Positions 1 through 9,773 of a stretch of 9,773 nucleotides of DNA are shown piece after piece (position 1 is the first letter of the stretch; every line of letters begins with the position of its first letter). Both the position numbers and the translations under genes were made by a program. This stretch comes from a virus (lineage: Duplodnaviria > Heunggongvirae > Uroviricota > Caudoviricetes): the IMG/VR virus record IMGVR_UViG_2541047698_000005; one strand, given 5' to 3'. Below the pieces are notes generated by a model. That model was not told the origin of the DNA. It saw nothing but the letters and a program-made list of their open reading frames with translations, and searched no databases.

Positions 1-113
1 GGATGATGTCGCTGTTGCTGACAGTGGTAATACGTTGACGGGGCAATATGCAGTTCGCTGCATAGCGGTCCGACCCCGTACTGCTCACGCAGCTTATCCA
101 GCAGTGGCATCAT
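1..113 (-). CDS. IS3-family transposase OrfB (DDE catalytic subunit), N-terminal fragment truncated by the window edge
   Basis: Hand translation of the minus strand in the -1 frame relative to orfA gives [37 protein letters not shown]..., which I recognise as a typical IS3-family OrfB N-terminus. It overlaps the orfA stop at the A6 slippery site. Confidence 0.7.
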
Positions 114-436
114 TTTTTCCAGAGGCGGTCGAACTCCGCCTTCGCAAAATAAGCGGAAGCCTGGCGAAGGATATCGTTACTGCGGCGCAGTTCACGATTT
201 TCACGTTCCAGCTCTTTCAGACGCTGACGTTCAGCGGTGGTGAGCCCTCCATCACCGCCCCCGGTATCCCGCTCATGCTGGCGAACCCAGACACGCAGAG
301 TCTCCGGCGTACAGCCAATCTTTGGAGCAATGGAACAAATTGTCGCCCATTGTGAGTCATATTCGCTCTGACTTTCCAGAACCATACGGACTGCCCGTTG
401 ACGGACTTCGGGGGAAAAACGAGTATTTTTAGTCAT
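110..436 (-). CDS. IS3-family transposase OrfA (HTH DNA-binding subunit), 108 aa
   Basis: The ORF track protein [22 protein letters not shown]...[36 protein letters not shown] has a helix-turn-helix followed by a leucine-zipper-like segment, typical of IS3-family OrfA. It ends at an A6 slippery run (plus-strand T-run 113..118) where the -1 frameshift into orfB occurs in this family. Confidence 0.88.
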
Positions 437-1222: not shown

Positions 1223-1633
1223 TTAGTGCGGAAATATTTGTGTAGTGTTCTGAATGTTCTCAGTAAAGAGTAATGAATTATCAAAGGTATAGTAATACCT
1301 TTTGTTTTCGTGGATATTTGTAATCCATCTGAAAACCCCTGCTGTAGCAAGATTTTTCCTGTATTCGTAAAATGATAACTCTCCTGATTTGAATCCTTTT
1401 AAGGTGGCTTCTATAAGGCATTTATTTTTTGAAAATCTTACATTTACAACCTTACCCTGTCCTTTTATTAAAACCGTATTATCGTTTTCAAGAACAAGAT
1501 GAATATTCTCTGTGGCTAAATAGTAAATGTAATGTGAGACATTGTGACGTTTTAGTTCAGAATAAAACCAGTGATAGTTTAAATTATTTCGCACTTTATC
1601 GAATATTTGTTTAAAAATGGCAACCTGAGCCAT
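1223..1633 (-). CDS. Prophage accessory protein, YbcV/YdfO-like (DUF1398-type, assignment from memory), 136 aa; strongly AT-rich gene
   Basis: Long minus-strand ORF in a visibly AT-rich block that contrasts with the GC-rich head genes. The preferred start is the second Met (ATG at 1633..1631 on the minus strand), which is preceded by GGAAGGT at 6-nt spacing; the first Met (1648) has no Shine-Dalgarno motif. The size (136 aa) and the position next to a ylcI-like gene near cos match the ybcV/ydfO arrangement I recall from E. coli K-12 DLP12 and Qin prophages. Confidence 0.7.
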
Positions 1634-1690
1634 TGTAGTACCTTCCATGTGATATGAGGGGGCGTAGTCTGCACGATTATCTAGATTGCT

Positions 1691-1924
1691 TCAATCTGGT
1701 CTAACCTGTTTTCTGAGCAATTCAGTAATGTCACTCTTTTCTTTGTTTGCTTCAGGCGAAACTCTTTTTTCTGAGCACAGTCTCCGGCGGCAGGCTTCAA
1801 TGACCCAGGCTGAGAAATTCCCGGACCCTTTTTGAACAAGAGCGATGTTAATTTGTTCAATCATTTGGTTAGGAAAGCGGATGTTGCGGGTTGTTGTTCT
1901 GCGGGTTCTGTTCTTCGTTGACAT
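1691..1924 (-). CDS. YlcI/YnfO-family small protein (DUF3950-like) with a predicted ribbon-helix-helix DNA-binding fold, 77 aa
   Basis: ORF MSTKNRTRRTTTRNIRFPNQMIEQINIALVQKGSGNFSAWVIEACRRRL... The pattern of a basic N-terminal arm, a short beta-strand (RNIRF), helix (NQMIEQINIAL), Gly-rich turn (GSGNFS) and second helix (AWVIEACRRRL) fits a CopG/Arc-type RHH. It sits immediately upstream of cos/Nu1, as ylcI does upstream of nohD in DLP12 (from memory). It is co-directional with the DUF1398-like gene, 43 bp away. Confidence 0.7.
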   Translation of the reverse strand: MSTKNRTRRTTTRNIRFPNQMIEQINIALVQKGSGNFSAWVIEACRRRLCSEKRVSPEANKEKSDITELLRKQVRPD

Positions 1925-2858: not shown

Positions 2859-6539
<3,681 letters not shown>

Positions 6540-6559
<20 letters not shown>

Positions 6560-7859
6560 TCTCCCGCATATTACCAGTATGGCCTTTAATGAGCCGCTGT
6601 TGCTTGAACCCGCCTATGCGCGGGTTTTCTTTTGTGCGCTTGCAGGCCAGCTTGGGATCAGCCGCCTGACGGATGCGGTATCCGGCGACAGCCTGACTGC
6701 CGGAGAGGCACCCGCGGCGCTGGCGTTATCCGTTGATGATGACGGACCACGGCAGGCCCGCAGTTATCAGGTCATGAACGGCATCGCCGTGCTGCCGGTG
6801 TCCGGCACGCTGGTCAGTCGGACGCGAGCGCTGCAGCCGTATTCGGGGATGACCGGTTACAACGGCATTATCGCCCGTCTGCAACAGGCTGCCAGCGACC
6901 CGATGGTGGACGGCATTCTGCTCGATATGGATACGCCAGGCGGGATGGTGGCAGGGGCATTTGACTGCGCTGACATCATCGCCCGTGTGCGTGACATAAA
7001 GCCGGTATGGGCGCTGGCCAATGACATGAACTGCAGCGCAGGTCAGCTGCTTGCCAGTGCCGCCTCCCGGCGTCTGGTCACGCAGACCGCCCGGACAGGC
7101 TCCATCGGCGTCATGATGGCTCACAGTAATTACGGTGCTGCGCTGGAGAAACAGGGCGTGGAAATCACGCTGATTTACAGCGGCAGCCATAAGGTGGATG
7201 GCAACCCCTACAGCCATCTACCGGATGATGTCCGGGAAACACTGCAGTCCCGGATGGATGCAACCCGCCGGATGTTTGCACAGAAGGTGTCGGCATATAC
7301 CGGCCTGTCCGTGCAGGCTGTGCTGGATACCGAGGCTGCAGTGTACAGCGGTCAGGAGGCCATTGATGCCGGACTGGCTGATGAACTTGTTAACAGTACC
7401 GATGCGATCACCATCATGCGTGATGCACTGGATGCACGTAAATCCCGTCTCTCAGGAGGGCGAATGACCAAAGAGACTCAATCAACAACTGTTTCAGCCA
7501 CTGCTTCGCAGGCTGACGTTACTGGCGTGGTGCAAGCGACGGAGGGCGAGAACGCCAGCGCTGCGCAGCCGGACGTGAACGCGCAGATCACCGCAGCTGT
7601 TGCGGCAGAAAACAGTCGCATTATGGGGATCCTCAACTGTGAGGAGGCTCACGGACGCGAAGAACAGGCACGCGTGCTGGCCGAAACCCCCGGTATGACC
7701 GTGGAAACGGCCCGCCGCATTCTGGCAGTTGCACCACAGAGTGCACAGGCGCGCAGTGACACTGCGCTGGATCGTCTGATGCAGGGGGCACCGGCACCGC
7801 TGGCTGCAGGTAACCCGGCATCTGATGCCGTTAACGATTTGCTGAACACACCAGTGTAA
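6540..7859 (+). CDS. C: Prohead protease/scaffold gpC (S49/ClpP-like serine peptidase), 439 aa, GTG start inside the 3' end of B
   Basis: The ORF track gives a 484-aa frame from 6405, but the N-terminus MTAELRNLPHITSMAFNEPLLLEPAYARVFF begins at the GTG at 6540..6542, giving 439 aa, the lambda C length. The peptidase region contains GIAVLPVSGTL...DTPGGMV. Confidence 0.9.
7254..7859 (+). CDS. nu3: Scaffolding protein gpNu3, in-frame internal start within C, 201 aa
   Basis: An ATG at 7254..7256 is in frame with C, 714 nt after the C start, exactly as for lambda Nu3 nested in C. It reads MDATRRMFAQKV... Confidence 0.8.
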   Translation: MDATRRMFAQKVSAYTGLSVQAVLDTEAAVYSGQEAIDAGLADELVNSTDAITIMRDALDARKSRLSGGRMTKETQSTTVSATASQADVTGVVQATEGENASAAQPDVNAQITAAVAAENSRIMGILNCEEAHGREEQARVLAETPGMTVETARRILAVAPQSAQARSDTALDRLMQGAPAPLAAGNPASDAVNDLLNTPV

Positions 7860-7868
7860 GGGATGTTT

Positions 7869-8201
7869 ATGACGAGCAAAGAAACCTTTACCCATTACCA
7901 GCCGCTGGGCAACAGTGACCCGGCACATACGGCAACCGCGCCCGGCGGATTGAGTGCGAAAGCGCCTGCAATGACCCCGCTGATGCTGGATACCTCCACC
8001 CGTAAGCTGGTTGCGTGGGATGGCACCACCGACGGTGCTGCCGTTGGCATTCTGGCGGTTGATGCTGACCAGACCAGCACCACGCTGACGTTCTACAAGT
8101 CCGGCACGTTCCGTTATGAGGATGTGCTCTGGCCGGAGGCTGCCAGCGACGAGACGAAGAAACGGACCGCGTTTGCCGGAACGGCAATCAGCATCGTTTA
8201 A
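7869..8201 (+). CDS. D: Head decoration protein gpD, 110 aa
   Basis: [43 protein letters not shown]...[11 protein letters not shown] matches lambda D. The ORF track starts two codons earlier (7863), but the lambda-type start is the ATG at 7869. Confidence 0.93.
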
Positions 8202-8221
8202 CCTTACCCTTCATCACTAAA

Positions 8222-8244
8222 GGCCGCCTGTGCGGCTTTTTTTA
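8222..8244 (+). terminator. Terminator-like GC hairpin plus T-tract in the D-E intergenic region (probable attenuator or RNA-stability element inside the late operon)
   Basis: GGCCGC-CTGT-GCGGC at 8222..8236 (5-6 bp GC stem, 4-nt loop) is followed immediately by TTTTTTT at 8237..8243. Confidence 0.5.
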
Positions 8245-8255
8245 CGGGATTTTTT

Positions 8256-9281
8256 ATGTCGATGTACACAACCGCCCAGCTGCTGGCGGCAAATGAGAAG
8301 AAATTTAAGTTTGATCCGCTGTTTCTGCGTCTCTTTTTCCGTGAGAGCTATCCCTTCACCACGGAGAAAGTCTATCTCTCACAAATTCCGGGACTGGTAA
8401 ACATGGCGCTGTACGTTTCGCCGATTGTTTCCGGTGAGGTTATCCGCTCCCGTGGCGGCTCCACCTCTGAATTTACACCGGGATATGTCAAGCCGAAGCA
8501 TGAGGTGAATCCGCAGATGACCCTGCGTCGCCTGCCGGATGAAGATCCGCAGAATCTGGCGGACCCGGCTTACCGCCGCCGTCGCATCATCATGCAGAAC
8601 ATGCGAGACGAAGAGCTGGCCATTGCTCAGGTCGAAGAGATGCAGGCCGTTTCTGCCGTGCTTAAGGGCAAATACACCATGACCGGTGAAGCCTTCGATC
8701 CGGTTGAAGTGGATATGGGCCGCAGTGCGGCGAACAACATCACACAGTCCGGTGGTACGGAGTGGAGCAAGCGTGACAAGTCCACGTATGACCCGACCGA
8801 CGATATCGAAGCCTATGCGCTGAACGCCAGCGGCGTGGTGAATATCATCGTGTTTGATCCGAAAGGCAGGGCGCTGTTCCGTTCCTTCAAAGCCGTCAAG
8901 GAGAAGCTGGATACCCGTCGCGGCTCTAATTCCGAGCTGGAGACAGCGGTAAAAGACCTGGGCGAAGCGGTGTCCTATAAGGGGATGTATGGCGATACGG
9001 CGATCGTCGTGTATTCCGGACAGTACGTGGAAAACGACGTCAAAAAGAACTTCCTTCCGGACAACACGATGGTGCTGGGGAACACTCAGGCACGCGGTCT
9101 GCGCACCTATGGCTGCATTCAGGATGCGGACGCACAGCGCGAAGGTATTAACGCTTCTGCCCGCTACCCGAAAAACTGGGTGACCACCGGCGATCCGGCG
9201 CGTGAGTTCACCATGATTCAGTCAGCACCGCTGATGCTGCTGGCTGACCCTGATGCGTTCGTGTCCGTACAACTGGCGTAA
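8256..9281 (+). CDS. E: Major capsid protein gpE, 341 aa
   Basis: A 341-aa ORF, MSMYTTAQLLAANEKKFKFDPLFLRLFFRESYPFTTEKVYLSQIPGLVNMALYVSPIVSGEV..., with lambda E size and sequence (from memory). Confidence 0.95.
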   Translation: MSMYTTAQLLAANEKKFKFDPLFLRLFFRESYPFTTEKVYLSQIPGLVNMALYVSPIVSGEVIRSRGGSTSEFTPGYVKPKHEVNPQMTLRRLPDEDPQNLADPAYRRRRIIMQNMRDEELAIAQVEEMQAVSAVLKGKYTMTGEAFDPVEVDMGRSAANNITQSGGTEWSKRDKSTYDPTDDIEAYALNASGVVNIIVFDPKGRALFRSFKAVKEKLDTRRGSNSELETAVKDLGEAVSYKGMYGDTAIVVYSGQYVENDVKKNFLPDNTMVLGNTQARGLRTYGCIQDADAQREGINASARYPKNWVTTGDPAREFTMIQSAPLMLLADPDAFVSVQLA

Positions 9282-9283
9282 TC

Positions 9284-9310
9284 ATGGCCCTTCGGGGCCA
9301 TTTTCTCTTT
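9284..9310 (+). terminator. Terminator-like hairpin with TTCG tetraloop and T-rich tail directly after the E stop codon
   Basis: ATGGCCC-TTCG-GGGCCAT at 9284..9301 (7-bp stem, UUCG-type loop) is followed by TTTCTCTTT. It lies between the E stop (9279..9281) and the FI Shine-Dalgarno motif GGAGGAG. Confidence 0.5.
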
Positions 9311-9322
9311 GTGGAGGAGTCC

Positions 9323-9718
9323 ATGACGAAAGATGAACTGATTGCCCGTCTTCAGGTGCTGGGTGAGCAACTGAACCGTGATGTCAGCCTGACGGGGACG
9401 AAAGAAGAACTGGTGCTCCGTGTGGCAGAGCTGGAAGAGGAGCTTGATGACACGGATGACGCTGCCGGTCAGGACACATCTGTCAGCCCGGAAAATGCGC
9501 TGACCGGACATGAAAATGAGGTTGTATCAGCGCAGCCGGATACCGTGACTGATACGGCTGATCTGGTCACGGTTGTGGCACTGGTGACGCTGCATACTGA
9601 TGCACTTCACGCCACGCGGGATGAGGCTGTGGCATTTGTGCTGCCGGGAACGGCGTTCCGTGTCTCTGCCGGTGTGGCAGCTGAAATGACAGAACGTGGC
9701 CTGGCCAGAATGCAATAA
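9323..9718 (+). CDS. FI: DNA-packaging / head assembly protein gpFI, 131 aa
   Basis: MTKDELIARLQVLGEQLNRDVSLTGTKEELVLRVAELEEELDDTDDAAGQD... matches lambda FI. The start is the ATG at 9323, preceded by GGAGGAG; the ORF-track frame extends 13 codons further upstream without a Shine-Dalgarno motif. Confidence 0.9.
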   Translation: MTKDELIARLQVLGEQLNRDVSLTGTKEELVLRVAELEEELDDTDDAAGQDTSVSPENALTGHENEVVSAQPDTVTDTADLVTVVALVTLHTDALHATRDEAVAFVLPGTAFRVSAGVAAEMTERGLARMQ

Positions 9719-9729
9719 CGGGAGGCGCT

Positions 9730-9773
9730 GTGGCTGATTTCGATAACCTGTTCGATGCTGCCATTGCCCGCGC
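9730..9773 (+). CDS. FII: Head-tail connector protein gpFII, N-terminal fragment truncated by the window end
   Basis: A GTG at 9730 is followed by ADFDNLFDAAIAR, matching the lambda FII N-terminus (MADFDNLFDAAIARA), and is preceded by GGGAGG. Confidence 0.75.
   Translation, partial: MADFDNLFDAAIAR

What the first reader, a model, noticed from the sequence alone, without database searches (positions are those of the whole stretch)
8202..9322. Major capsid gene E is bracketed by terminator-like hairpins inside the late operon
A GC stem with a U7 tract follows D, and a 7-bp stem with a UUCG-type loop and a U-rich tail follows E. The late genes of lambdoid phages are transcribed as one long antiterminated transcript, so these are unlikely to be efficient terminators. 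They may act as 3' stability determinants or processing sites that raise the steady-state level of the D and E messages, the two proteins needed in about 400 copies per capsid, relative to flanking low-copy assembly proteins. That would be a simple stoichiometry control written into the intergenic spacers.
Basis: inference. Interest (0 to 1): 0.35.

Follow-up and report, generated by a model that had tools for sequence, protein, structure and literature searches.

The report
Terminator hairpins flanking lambda capsid gene
Both hairpins are real, strongly conserved terminator-type RNA structures on either side of the phage lambda major capsid gene, but database records already note them; only their function is still unsettled.

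Summary
Hairpin 1 lies after D at 8219-8240, with a U7 tract at 8237-8243. Hairpin 2 lies after E at 9284-9301, with a C(UUCG)G loop and a U/C tail. Both stem-loops are identical in phage lambda.

A strict terminator score finds three sites on the + strand of the window: these two and a third inside gene C, after portal gene B. It finds none on the - strand. Shuffles give 0.1.

I surveyed 37 non-redundant relatives of the capsid gene (28-100% protein identity). A terminator-like hairpin follows the D-like gene in 22 and E in 16. It follows about 1% of the other genes and 2% of random windows. Stem sequences differ while pairing is kept.

The feature is already known. GenBank records of N15 and HK225 annotate both sites as putative rho-independent terminators, and HK629 and 434 annotate the post-D one. 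The P22 record cites "stem-loops in phage HK97 and phage lambda".

The U tracts are conserved too, even at synonymous sites inside C. This points to true intrinsic terminators that Q-modified polymerase bypasses, rather than to simple stability hairpins. It is weakened because E is not uniquely bracketed. Interest is low to moderate.

The parts
6606..6637 (+). Third terminator-like hairpin, embedded in gene C: GAACCCGC-CUAU-GCGCGGGUUU followed by UCUUUUGUGC. It lies 47 nt after the stop of portal gene B. It is part of the same pattern of terminators punctuating the late operon.
   Evidence: d = 12.9; the 20-nt core is about 98% conserved in 14 non-redundant loci, against 76-84% in the flanks; codon identity is 0.94 in the block against 0.67 in the flanks, p = 3e-4.
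7869..8201 (+). Gene D (head decoration protein, 110 aa).
   Evidence: lambda D, 5747-6079.
8219..8240 (+). Post-D hairpin: AAAGGCCGC / CUGU / GCGGCUUUU. The G+C core is 8223-8227 with 8232-8236.
   Evidence: -12.2 kcal/mol. (identical in lambda). (annotated as a rho-independent terminator in HK629, 434, N15 and HK225). (94.9% of cells paired; 3 pairs with changes on both sides).
8237..8243 (+). U7 tract of the post-D terminator. It directly abuts the E translation initiation region.
   Evidence: (a U-rich tail follows 22 of 27 post-D hairpins across lineages).
8244..8258 (+). E translation initiation region: ACGGGA (weak Shine-Dalgarno sequence), U6, then AUG. It is predicted to be largely unpaired.
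   Evidence: conserved U7-ACGGGA-(A/U)7-AUG. (P(unpaired) 0.72). (hairpin-to-AUG distance 21 +/- 4.7 nt across 24 loci).
8256..9281 (+). Gene E (major capsid protein, 341 aa).
9284..9301 (+). Post-E hairpin: AUGGCCC / UUCG / GGGCCAU. It has a C(UUCG)G tetraloop and starts 2 nt after the E stop codon.
   Evidence: -12.9 kcal/mol, z = -3.2. (identical in lambda). (the homologous site is annotated as a putative terminator in N15 and HK225). (91% of cells paired; 3 pairs with changes on both sides).
9302..9319 (+). U/C-rich tail (UUUCUCU, 9302-9308), predicted to pair with the Fi Shine-Dalgarno sequence GGAGGAG (9313-9319).
   Evidence: second helix in the minimum-free-energy fold of 9282-9323. 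(P(unpaired) of the Fi initiation region 0.32, against 0.72 for E).
9323..9718 (+). Gene Fi (DNA packaging chaperone), the first low-copy gene after the shell genes.

Best explanation
The two hairpins are genuine intrinsic (rho-independent) terminators built into the antiterminated late operon of a lambda-type phage. A third, inside gene C, belongs with them.

Proposed mechanism. RNA polymerase that has not been modified by the late antiterminator Q forms the G+C-rich hairpin at the U tract and is released. Such polymerase includes leak-through from the constitutive late promoter in a lysogen, and spurious internal starts. As a result, the strongly translated shell genes (Nu3, D, E) and everything downstream are expressed only when Q is present. 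Q-modified polymerase reads through with little loss. The hairpins then persist in the long late mRNA. There they can secondarily stall 3'-to-5' exonucleases, and they define the structural context of the neighbouring ribosome-binding sites: open for E, partly occluded for Fi.

Shown here: the structures, their terminator-grade architecture, their conservation and covariation, and the conservation of the U tracts.

Inferred: which polymerase population they act on, and that insulation is the main selected function rather than dosage tuning.
For: 1. Architecture. Each has a G+C stem, a tetraloop and an adjacent U tract. The d-scores (22-24) equal those I computed for hairpins in lambda's ren-ninB spacer, at the oop 3' end, in the ea10-ral spacer and after rexB (d = 19-30). 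I identify these from memory as tR2, t_o, tL3 and the rexB-distal terminator.
2. Specificity. There are three sites on the + strand, none on the - strand, and 0.125 per shuffle. All three lie just after a gene end.
3. Positional conservation in 37 non-redundant loci, from Enterobacteria to alpha-proteobacteria. A terminator-like hairpin follows the D-like gene in 22 of 37 and E in 16 of 37. It follows 3 of 213 other co-directional genes and 33 of 1480 random windows. Fisher p ranges from 1e-12 to 1e-24.
4. Stems differ in sequence between lineages but stay paired. Loops are hypervariable. Double compensatory changes and many G-U pairs point to an RNA structure on the + strand.
5. U tracts accompany 81% of post-D hairpins and 48% of post-E hairpins, against 6% of random hairpins. 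This includes T-rich tails in G+C-rich alpha-proteobacterial loci.
6. Inside C, the codons GUU-UUC-UUU that make the U tract are invariant in 14 loci, while flanking synonymous sites vary.
7. Annotators reached the same reading. Putative rho-independent terminators are marked at these sites in N15, HK225, HK629 and 434.
8. The phage L genome paper (PMC8022706) says such terminators inside the late operon are common and that 'their roles are not known'. It proposes partial termination, or stopping transcription that started without antitermination.
Against: - I had no transcript data. Termination at these sites, with or without Q, is not demonstrated here.
- Insulation alone does not explain why stem-loops so consistently follow the major capsid gene in unrelated capsid lineages (lambda, HK97, P22). 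That pattern suggests a link to abundance.
- The post-D U tract lies directly in front of the E Shine-Dalgarno sequence, and the post-E pyrimidine tail pairs with the Fi Shine-Dalgarno sequence. Part of the U-tract conservation could therefore reflect translation signals.
- About half of the post-E hairpins in distant relatives lack a U tract. That fits a plain stability hairpin better.
- The 37 loci are not phylogenetically independent. About 10 belong to one N15-like group.
Confidence: 0.45

Rival explanations
1. After read-through, the hairpins act as 3' exonuclease barriers, and the post-D hairpin perhaps also as a 5' cap for a processed E message. The D and E segments of the late mRNA then outlive the flanking low-copy cistrons, which raises D and E output.
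For: - Both stems are stable, and post-E carries the very stable C(UUCG)G loop.
- The hairpins hug E tightly. The post-D hairpin is anchored 21 +/- 4.7 nt before the E start, while its distance from the D stop varies from 7 to 40 nt. The post-E hairpin starts 2-12 nt after the E stop in enteric phages.
- Many post-E hairpins in distant relatives have no U tract.
- In HK97, putative terminators flank the protease and major-head block and the major tail gene.
- Precedents recalled from memory: the malE-malF REP hairpins and the Rhodobacter puf intercistronic hairpins.
Against: - The U tracts are conserved, which a barrier does not need.
- A comparable hairpin follows the low-copy portal gene, and others follow I and J.
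- Stems of 7-9 bp are not RNase III substrates.
- From memory, Sampson et al. 1988 attribute the differences among late proteins mainly to translation initiation.
- The text I read from the lambda RIL-seq study names no Hfq-bound RNA from these spacers (weak evidence).
Confidence: 0.25
2. Leaky terminators that attenuate even Q-modified polymerase. A fraction of transcription stops after D and after E, so the roughly 15 kb of head-completion and tail genes receive less mRNA than the shell genes. This would be a step-down of the kind seen in phiX174 and T7.
For: - The sites have terminator-grade architecture.
- They lie at the end of the shell-gene block.
- phiX174 uses poor terminators after J, F (major capsid) and G to step transcription down.
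- Inefficient terminators that balance expression are reported for T7 and LUZ7.
- Partial termination is one of the two options named in PMC8022706.
Against: - A step-down cannot raise D and E relative to the upstream low-copy genes Nu1, A, W and B.
- The terminator after B would give terminase and portal genes the most mRNA, which is the opposite of what is needed.
- The major tail gene V, needed in about 190 copies, lies downstream.
- From established knowledge, Q-modified polymerase resists intrinsic terminators efficiently, so the step per site is probably small.
Confidence: 0.15
3. The spacers are mainly translation-control elements. The post-D hairpin and U tract would form an unstructured, U-rich, S1-binding platform that drives very high initiation on E despite its weak Shine-Dalgarno sequence. 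The post-E hairpin and pyrimidine tail would occlude the Fi Shine-Dalgarno sequence and keep Fi low.
For: - U7-ACGGGA-(A/U)7-AUG is conserved.
- The hairpin is anchored to the E start, not to the D stop.
- The E initiation region is predicted open and the Fi one occluded: 0.72 against 0.32 in the window, and 0.60 against 0.48 over 25 loci, Wilcoxon p = 0.002.
- The Fi Shine-Dalgarno sequence is paired in two different ways in lambda-type and N15-type spacers.
- This agrees with translation initiation being the main control (Sampson 1988, from memory).
- Precedent from memory: the rnd mRNA, where a terminator-like stem-loop plus U8 upstream of the Shine-Dalgarno sequence is required for translation.
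Against: - It does not explain the hairpin inside C, or the post-E hairpins that are not next to a Shine-Dalgarno sequence.
- A G+C hairpin is not needed for a U-rich enhancer.
- The difference in predicted pairing is modest, and the loci are related.
- Pyrimidine tails and purine-rich Shine-Dalgarno sequences are complementary by their nature.
Confidence: 0.15
4. Chance palindromes in spacer DNA, with no function.
For: The loose consensus scan finds as many terminator-like sites as shuffles do.
Against: - The strict score gives 3 sites against 0.125 expected.
- Position is conserved in 37 lineages with different stem sequences.
- Covariation is present.
- The D-E spacer is held at 95% identity or more in 3003 of 5426 complete E. 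coli genomes.
Confidence: 0.01

Closest known systems
The D-E and E-FI stem-loops of lambda itself, and the putative rho-independent terminators annotated at the same sites in N15 (AF064539), HK225 (JQ086371), HK629 (JQ182735) and 434 (OL657227)
   Same: The stem-loops are identical in lambda and HK629. In N15 and HK225 the hairpins are homologous, carry compensatory changes and sit at the same two positions around the major head gene.
   Different: Nothing structural. The window differs from lambda by one T fewer before the E AUG, and by the tail UUUUCUCUUU instead of UUGUUUCUCU after E.
Stem-loops or putative terminators after the major capsid genes of HK97 (AF069529) and P22 (BK000583)
   Same: They sit in the same place in a Q-type antiterminated late operon. 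The P22 record says its stem-loop is 'similar in location to stem-loops in phage HK97 and phage lambda'. HK97 also has one at the end of the portal gene, like the hairpin inside C here.
   Different: The capsid genes and hairpin sequences are unrelated. HK97 also brackets its major tail gene, whereas lambda V has no flanking hairpins.
Leaky internal terminators of phiX174 (T_J, T_F, T_G, T_H) and T7 T-phi after gene 10
   Same: These are intrinsic-type hairpins placed after major capsid genes inside a multi-gene transcription unit, with substantial read-through.
   Different: In those phages read-through comes from weak terminators and is measured to step mRNA down. Here read-through is imposed by an antiterminator, and the size of any step is unknown.
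Intercistronic stabiliser hairpins (malE-malF REP, Rhodobacter puf operon), recalled from memory
   Same: A stable stem-loop sits after the cistron that must be made in excess, inside a polycistronic mRNA.
   Different: Those elements have no conserved U tract and are not terminators. Differential segment stability has been measured for them and has not been measured here.
C(UUCG)G hairpins in phage T4 intercistronic regions (Tuerk et al. 1988), recalled from memory
   Same: The post-E loop is exactly C(UUCG)G and lies between cistrons of a phage late transcript. UUCG is kept in most N15-like relatives.
   Different: This is a structural class, not a functional family. Membership says nothing about mechanism.

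Membership tests
Intrinsic (rho-independent) terminator | G+C-rich stem-loop of about 5-14 bp with a short loop | tested here: met
   Post-D has 5 G-C pairs plus 4 A-U or G-U pairs and a 4-nt loop. Post-E has 7 bp and a 4-nt loop. Energies are -12.2 and -12.9 kcal/mol.
Intrinsic (rho-independent) terminator | U-rich tract immediately 3' of the stem, on the transcribed strand only | tested here: met
   Post-D has U7. Post-E has UUUUCUCUUU, which is weaker. The d-scores are 22.2 and 24.3, similar to classical lambda terminators. No site scores on the - strand. The U tract is conserved across lineages.
Intrinsic (rho-independent) terminator | Causes transcript release by unmodified RNA polymerase | not testable with these tools
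   This needs in vitro transcription, reporter assays or Term-seq. I could reach no such data.
mRNA 3' stabiliser / exonuclease-barrier hairpin | Stable intercistronic stem-loop downstream of the protected cistron | tested here: met
mRNA 3' stabiliser / exonuclease-barrier hairpin | The upstream segment lives longer than the downstream segment, and processed 3' ends lie at the base of the hairpin | not testable with these tools
   No half-life or 3'-end data were available.
RNase III processing site (T7 type) | About 20 bp or more of double-stranded RNA, often with an internal loop | tested here: not met
   The stems are 7-9 bp. No longer helix appears in the folds of either spacer.
Any curated Rfam family | Score above the family's gathering threshold | tested here: not met
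   The only overlap is a sub-threshold Leu_leader match at 8143-8243 (21.6 bits against a threshold of 50, E = 0.81), which I take to be a generic resemblance to a terminator.
C(UUCG)G tetraloop hairpin | UUCG loop closed by a C-G pair | tested here: met
   Post-E is GGCCC-UUCG-GGGCC. The post-D loop is CUGU, so it does not belong to this class.

The most novel reading that the evidence does not exclude
The three hairpins (inside C, post-D and post-E) may delimit hairpin-capped sub-messages of the late transcript: Nu3 plus D, and E. Under this reading their selective survival, together with the U-tract-driven ribosome-binding site of E, sets shell-protein dosage in all lambda-type capsid modules. 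The same elements would double as terminators that keep the capsid and portal genes silent in lysogens. Capsid and portal proteins are typical triggers of abortive-infection defences, so silencing them could matter. This would be a dual-use terminator, stabiliser and translation element conserved from Enterobacteria to alpha-proteobacteria.
Probability: 0.12. Interest if true: 0.55.

Novelty: already known. Interest (0 to 1): 0.3.

Why it matters
Terminators inside antiterminated phage late operons are widely annotated, but by the field's own statement "their roles are not known" (PMC8022706). Lambda is the best system in which to settle this. The two spacers are non-coding, so stem, loop and U tract can be mutated separately.

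The survey here gives clear targets and predictions. These sites are among the most conserved non-coding features of lambda-type head modules. The U tract is selected as well as the stem. A third site is held by synonymous-site constraint inside gene C.

The outcome would say whether such elements insulate prophage structural genes, tune dosage, or both. It would not change the general picture of lambda gene control.

Tried and rejected
- A loose consensus scan of the window gave no enrichment and missed hairpin 1. I replaced it with a scored scan and shuffles.
- The IMG/VR scan with the E protein returned only 99-100% identical loci, which are useless for covariation. I used GTDB genomes and GenBank phages instead.
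- Papers on lambda late-mRNA levels were not held: Sampson 1988 and Liu 2013, tried by DOI and by PMC id, the lambda review by Casjens and Hendrix, and Pedulla 2003. None found 3'-end mapping, Term-seq or half-life data for these sites.
- The lambda RIL-seq/RNA-seq preprint names Hfq-bound phage RNAs only near pR' and in the early left operon. Its held supplementary text had no entry for the D-E or E-Fi spacers.
- The supplements of PMC5737525 are not held.
- RNase III processing is rejected on stem length.
- A DNA-level palindrome or protein-binding site is rejected. Many G-U pairs keep the structure only on the + strand RNA, and U tracts occur on the + strand only.
- A promoter between the post-D hairpin and E was considered. 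Only 17 nt are available and there is no consensus match.
- A known Rfam family is rejected.

Full report
**What the window is.** The 9.8-kb window is the left arm of a lambda-type prophage. Positions 7860-9773 are 96.2% identical to lambda J02459 and up to 98.7% identical to other E. coli lambdoid phages. The gene order is Nu1, A, W, B, C/Nu3, D (7869-8201), E (8256-9281), Fi (9323-9718), then the start of Fii. The left 2.1 kb is not collinear with lambda. It holds an IS3-type remnant and two small DUF genes.

**Check of the observation.**
- Post-D: AAAGGCCGC-CUGU-GCGGCUUUU at 8219-8240, with U7 at 8237-8243.
- Post-E: AUGGCCC-UUCG-GGGCCAU at 9284-9301, with the tail UUUCUCUUU.

A permissive consensus scan is uninformative: 10 sites against 9.1 expected. 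A scored scan that combines hairpin energy per length with a weighted U tail gives exactly three + strand sites above zero in the window. These are post-E, post-D and a site inside C at 6606-6637. The - strand has none, and shuffles average 0.125. The scores of 22-24 match those of hairpins at the positions of lambda's classical terminators (I identified those from memory of the lambda map). The D-E and E-Fi spacers are the only ones longer than about 12 nt in the head cluster. In lambda, every sizeable spacer of the late operon holds such a hairpin: D-E, E-Fi, I-J, J-lom and post-lom.

**Conservation.** Both stem-loops and the U7 tract are identical in lambda and HK629. The D-E spacer occurs at 95% identity or more in 3003 of 5426 complete E. 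coli genomes.

I collected loci encoding E homologues from GenBank phages and from one genome per GTDB species. I reduced them to 37 with less than 95% E identity, spanning 100% down to 28% identity to the window's E. Hosts include Enterobacteria, Aeromonas, Pseudomonas, Oceanospirillales and alpha-proteobacteria.

The test asked for a terminator-like hairpin within 67 nt after a stop codon, defined as dG of -6 or lower with at least 5 U in the next 8 nt. Results:

| Position | Loci or windows with such a hairpin |
|---|---|
| After the gene preceding E | 22 of 37 |
| After E | 16 of 37 |
| After other co-directional genes in the same loci | 3 of 213 |
| Random 70-nt windows | 33 of 1480 |

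Fisher p ranges from 1e-12 to 1e-24. Any hairpin at all was present in 27 of 37 and 33 of 37, against a background of 35%.

Stem sequences fall into many unrelated types, such as GCCGC/GCGGC, CCGCC/GGCGG, GGGCCC and GGGCGCC after D, and GGCCC/GGGCC, GGGGC/GCCCC, GAGCC/GGCUC and CGGCGGG/CCCGCCG after E.

In the alignable lambda and N15-like subset, loops are hypervariable and stems are kept. The post-D helix has 94.9% of cells paired and the post-E helix 91%. Each has three pairs with changes on both sides, and no shuffle out of 500 reaches the observed score. Frequent G-U pairs place the structure on the + strand RNA. These loci are related, so the p values overstate independence. The number of unrelated stem types is the sturdier argument.

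**Already known.** N15 (AF064539) and HK225 annotate both sites as putative rho-independent terminators. HK629 and 434 annotate the post-D site. The P22 record marks a stem-loop after its coat gene as [quoted passage not shown]. HK97 marks putative terminators after the portal gene, after the major head gene, and before and after the major tail gene. [quoted passage not shown] It offers two options: partial termination, or stopping transcription that started without antitermination (PMC8022706).

**Terminator or stability hairpin?** The most discriminating result is that the U tract is conserved along with the stem.
- U tracts follow 81% of post-D hairpins and 48% of post-E hairpins, against 6% of random hairpins.
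- T-rich tails appear even in G+C-rich alpha-proteobacterial loci.
- The third hairpin, inside gene C, lies 47 nt after the portal gene's stop. Its 28-nt block GAACCCGCCUAUGCGCGGGUUUUCUUUUG is almost invariant in 14 non-redundant loci.
- Codon identity among loci sharing the same amino acid is 0.94 in that block against 0.67 in the flanks (p = 3e-4).
- The only variable sites in the block are a stem-edge A/G (A-U to G-U), a loop U/C, and a base after the U tract.

An exonuclease barrier needs no U tract, so selection seems to act on the ability to terminate. The operon is read by Q-modified polymerase, and essential genes lie downstream (established knowledge). The simplest reading is therefore conditional terminators: effective against unmodified polymerase and bypassed in lytic growth.

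The hairpin after the low-copy portal gene, and those after I and J, also show that E is not uniquely bracketed. They also show that a simple step-down would favour the wrong genes.

- The post-D hairpin is anchored to the E start (21 +/- 4.7 nt), while its distance from the D stop ranges from 7 to 40 nt. The post-E hairpin begins 2-12 nt after the E stop in enteric phages. The two hairpins therefore hug the E cistron.
- Half of the distant post-E hairpins have no U tract.
- Stem-loops accompany abundant structural genes in HK97 and P22.
- The U tract abuts a conserved E initiation region, U7-ACGGGA-(A/U)7-AUG, that is predicted to be open.
- The post-E pyrimidine tail is predicted to pair with the Fi Shine-Dalgarno sequence. 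P(unpaired) is 0.72 against 0.32 in the window, and 0.60 against 0.48 over 25 loci.

These observations fit secondary roles in message stability and in translation context. They do not fit RNase III processing, because the stems are too short.

From memory, Sampson et al. 1988 found that translation initiation accounts for most of the range in late-protein yields. If so, any effect of the hairpins on mRNA level is limited to fine-tuning. I could not read that paper or the 2013 ribosome-profiling paper.

**Verdict.** The structures are functional by comparative criteria. They are best described as intrinsic terminators embedded in an antiterminated operon. The feature is already annotated in related phages, and for lambda by cross-reference from the P22 record. 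The proposed role in stoichiometry is one of several untested possibilities, and the comparative data lean somewhat against it as the main role. My confidence in the conditional-terminator reading is 0.45, and in the stabiliser reading 0.25. Interest is about 0.3. Its value lies in a well-defined, easily testable open question about terminators inside late operons, and in the side observation of a synonymously constrained terminator inside gene C.

Noticed in passing
window 6606-6637 (+), inside gene C; lambda 4485-4515: This is a terminator-like hairpin with a U tract embedded in coding sequence, 47 nt after the stop of portal gene B. The 28-nt block is almost invariant in 14 non-redundant loci. 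Synonymous sites are constrained (codon identity 0.94 against 0.67 in the flanks, p = 3e-4). HK97 has an annotated putative terminator at the end of its portal gene.
   Followed up: partly
window 9302-9319 (+): The U/C tail of the post-E hairpin is predicted to pair with the Fi Shine-Dalgarno sequence GGAGGAG. N15-type spacers instead pair that sequence with a CUUCC run 5' of the hairpin. The Fi initiation region is predicted to be less open than that of E. The same tail-to-Shine-Dalgarno arrangement is seen after the P22 coat gene and before the HK97 major tail gene.
   Followed up: partly
window 39-155 (-) and 110-436 (-): There is a strong Rfam match to the ALIL pseudoknot (RF01497, 120 bits), the frameshift element of IS3-family insertion sequences. 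It overlaps an ORF with a transposase HTH_Tnp_1 domain. An IS element or remnant therefore sits at the left end of the window, where lambda has Rz and bor.
   Followed up: partly
window 1223-1648 (-) and 1691-1924 (-): Two small ORFs on the opposite strand carry DUF1398 and DUF3950 domains. They lie between the IS remnant and cos/Nu1 and are absent from lambda at this position.
   Followed up: no
L169 (lambda J02459) 15461-15484, 18920-18935, 19613-19632, 136-151: Further terminator-like hairpins lie on the late strand of lambda in the I-J, J-lom and post-lom spacers and just upstream of Nu1. Every sizeable spacer of the late operon holds one.
   Followed up: partly
loci L091-L106, L119, L124, L127-L128, L136-L146, L151, L153: Short, low-coverage contigs in genome assemblies of unrelated taxa carry lambda E at about 95-100% identity. 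Examples are Chromatium, Neobacillus, Kitasatospora, Bradyrhizobium, Paenibacillus and an Akkermansia MAG. This is almost certainly contamination by lambda control DNA.
   Followed up: no
window 8250-8255 and 9302-9311, compared with lambda: The window has U6 rather than U7 before the E AUG. Its post-E tail is UUUUCUCUUU rather than lambda's UUGUUUCUCU, which gives a longer unbroken U run next to the stem.
   Followed up: no
window 8202-8218: The stretch between the D stop and the post-D hairpin varies in length across relatives (7-40 nt) but is never removed. It keeps the hairpin outside the footprint of ribosomes terminating on D, unlike the post-E hairpin, which starts 2 nt after the E stop codon. 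The meaning of this is unknown.
   Followed up: no
literature (PMC2147009): That paper cites an earlier array study (Chen et al.) as reporting high gpE expression in uninduced lambda lysogens, and says it could not reproduce the result. This matters for whether E is ever transcribed without Q.
   Followed up: no
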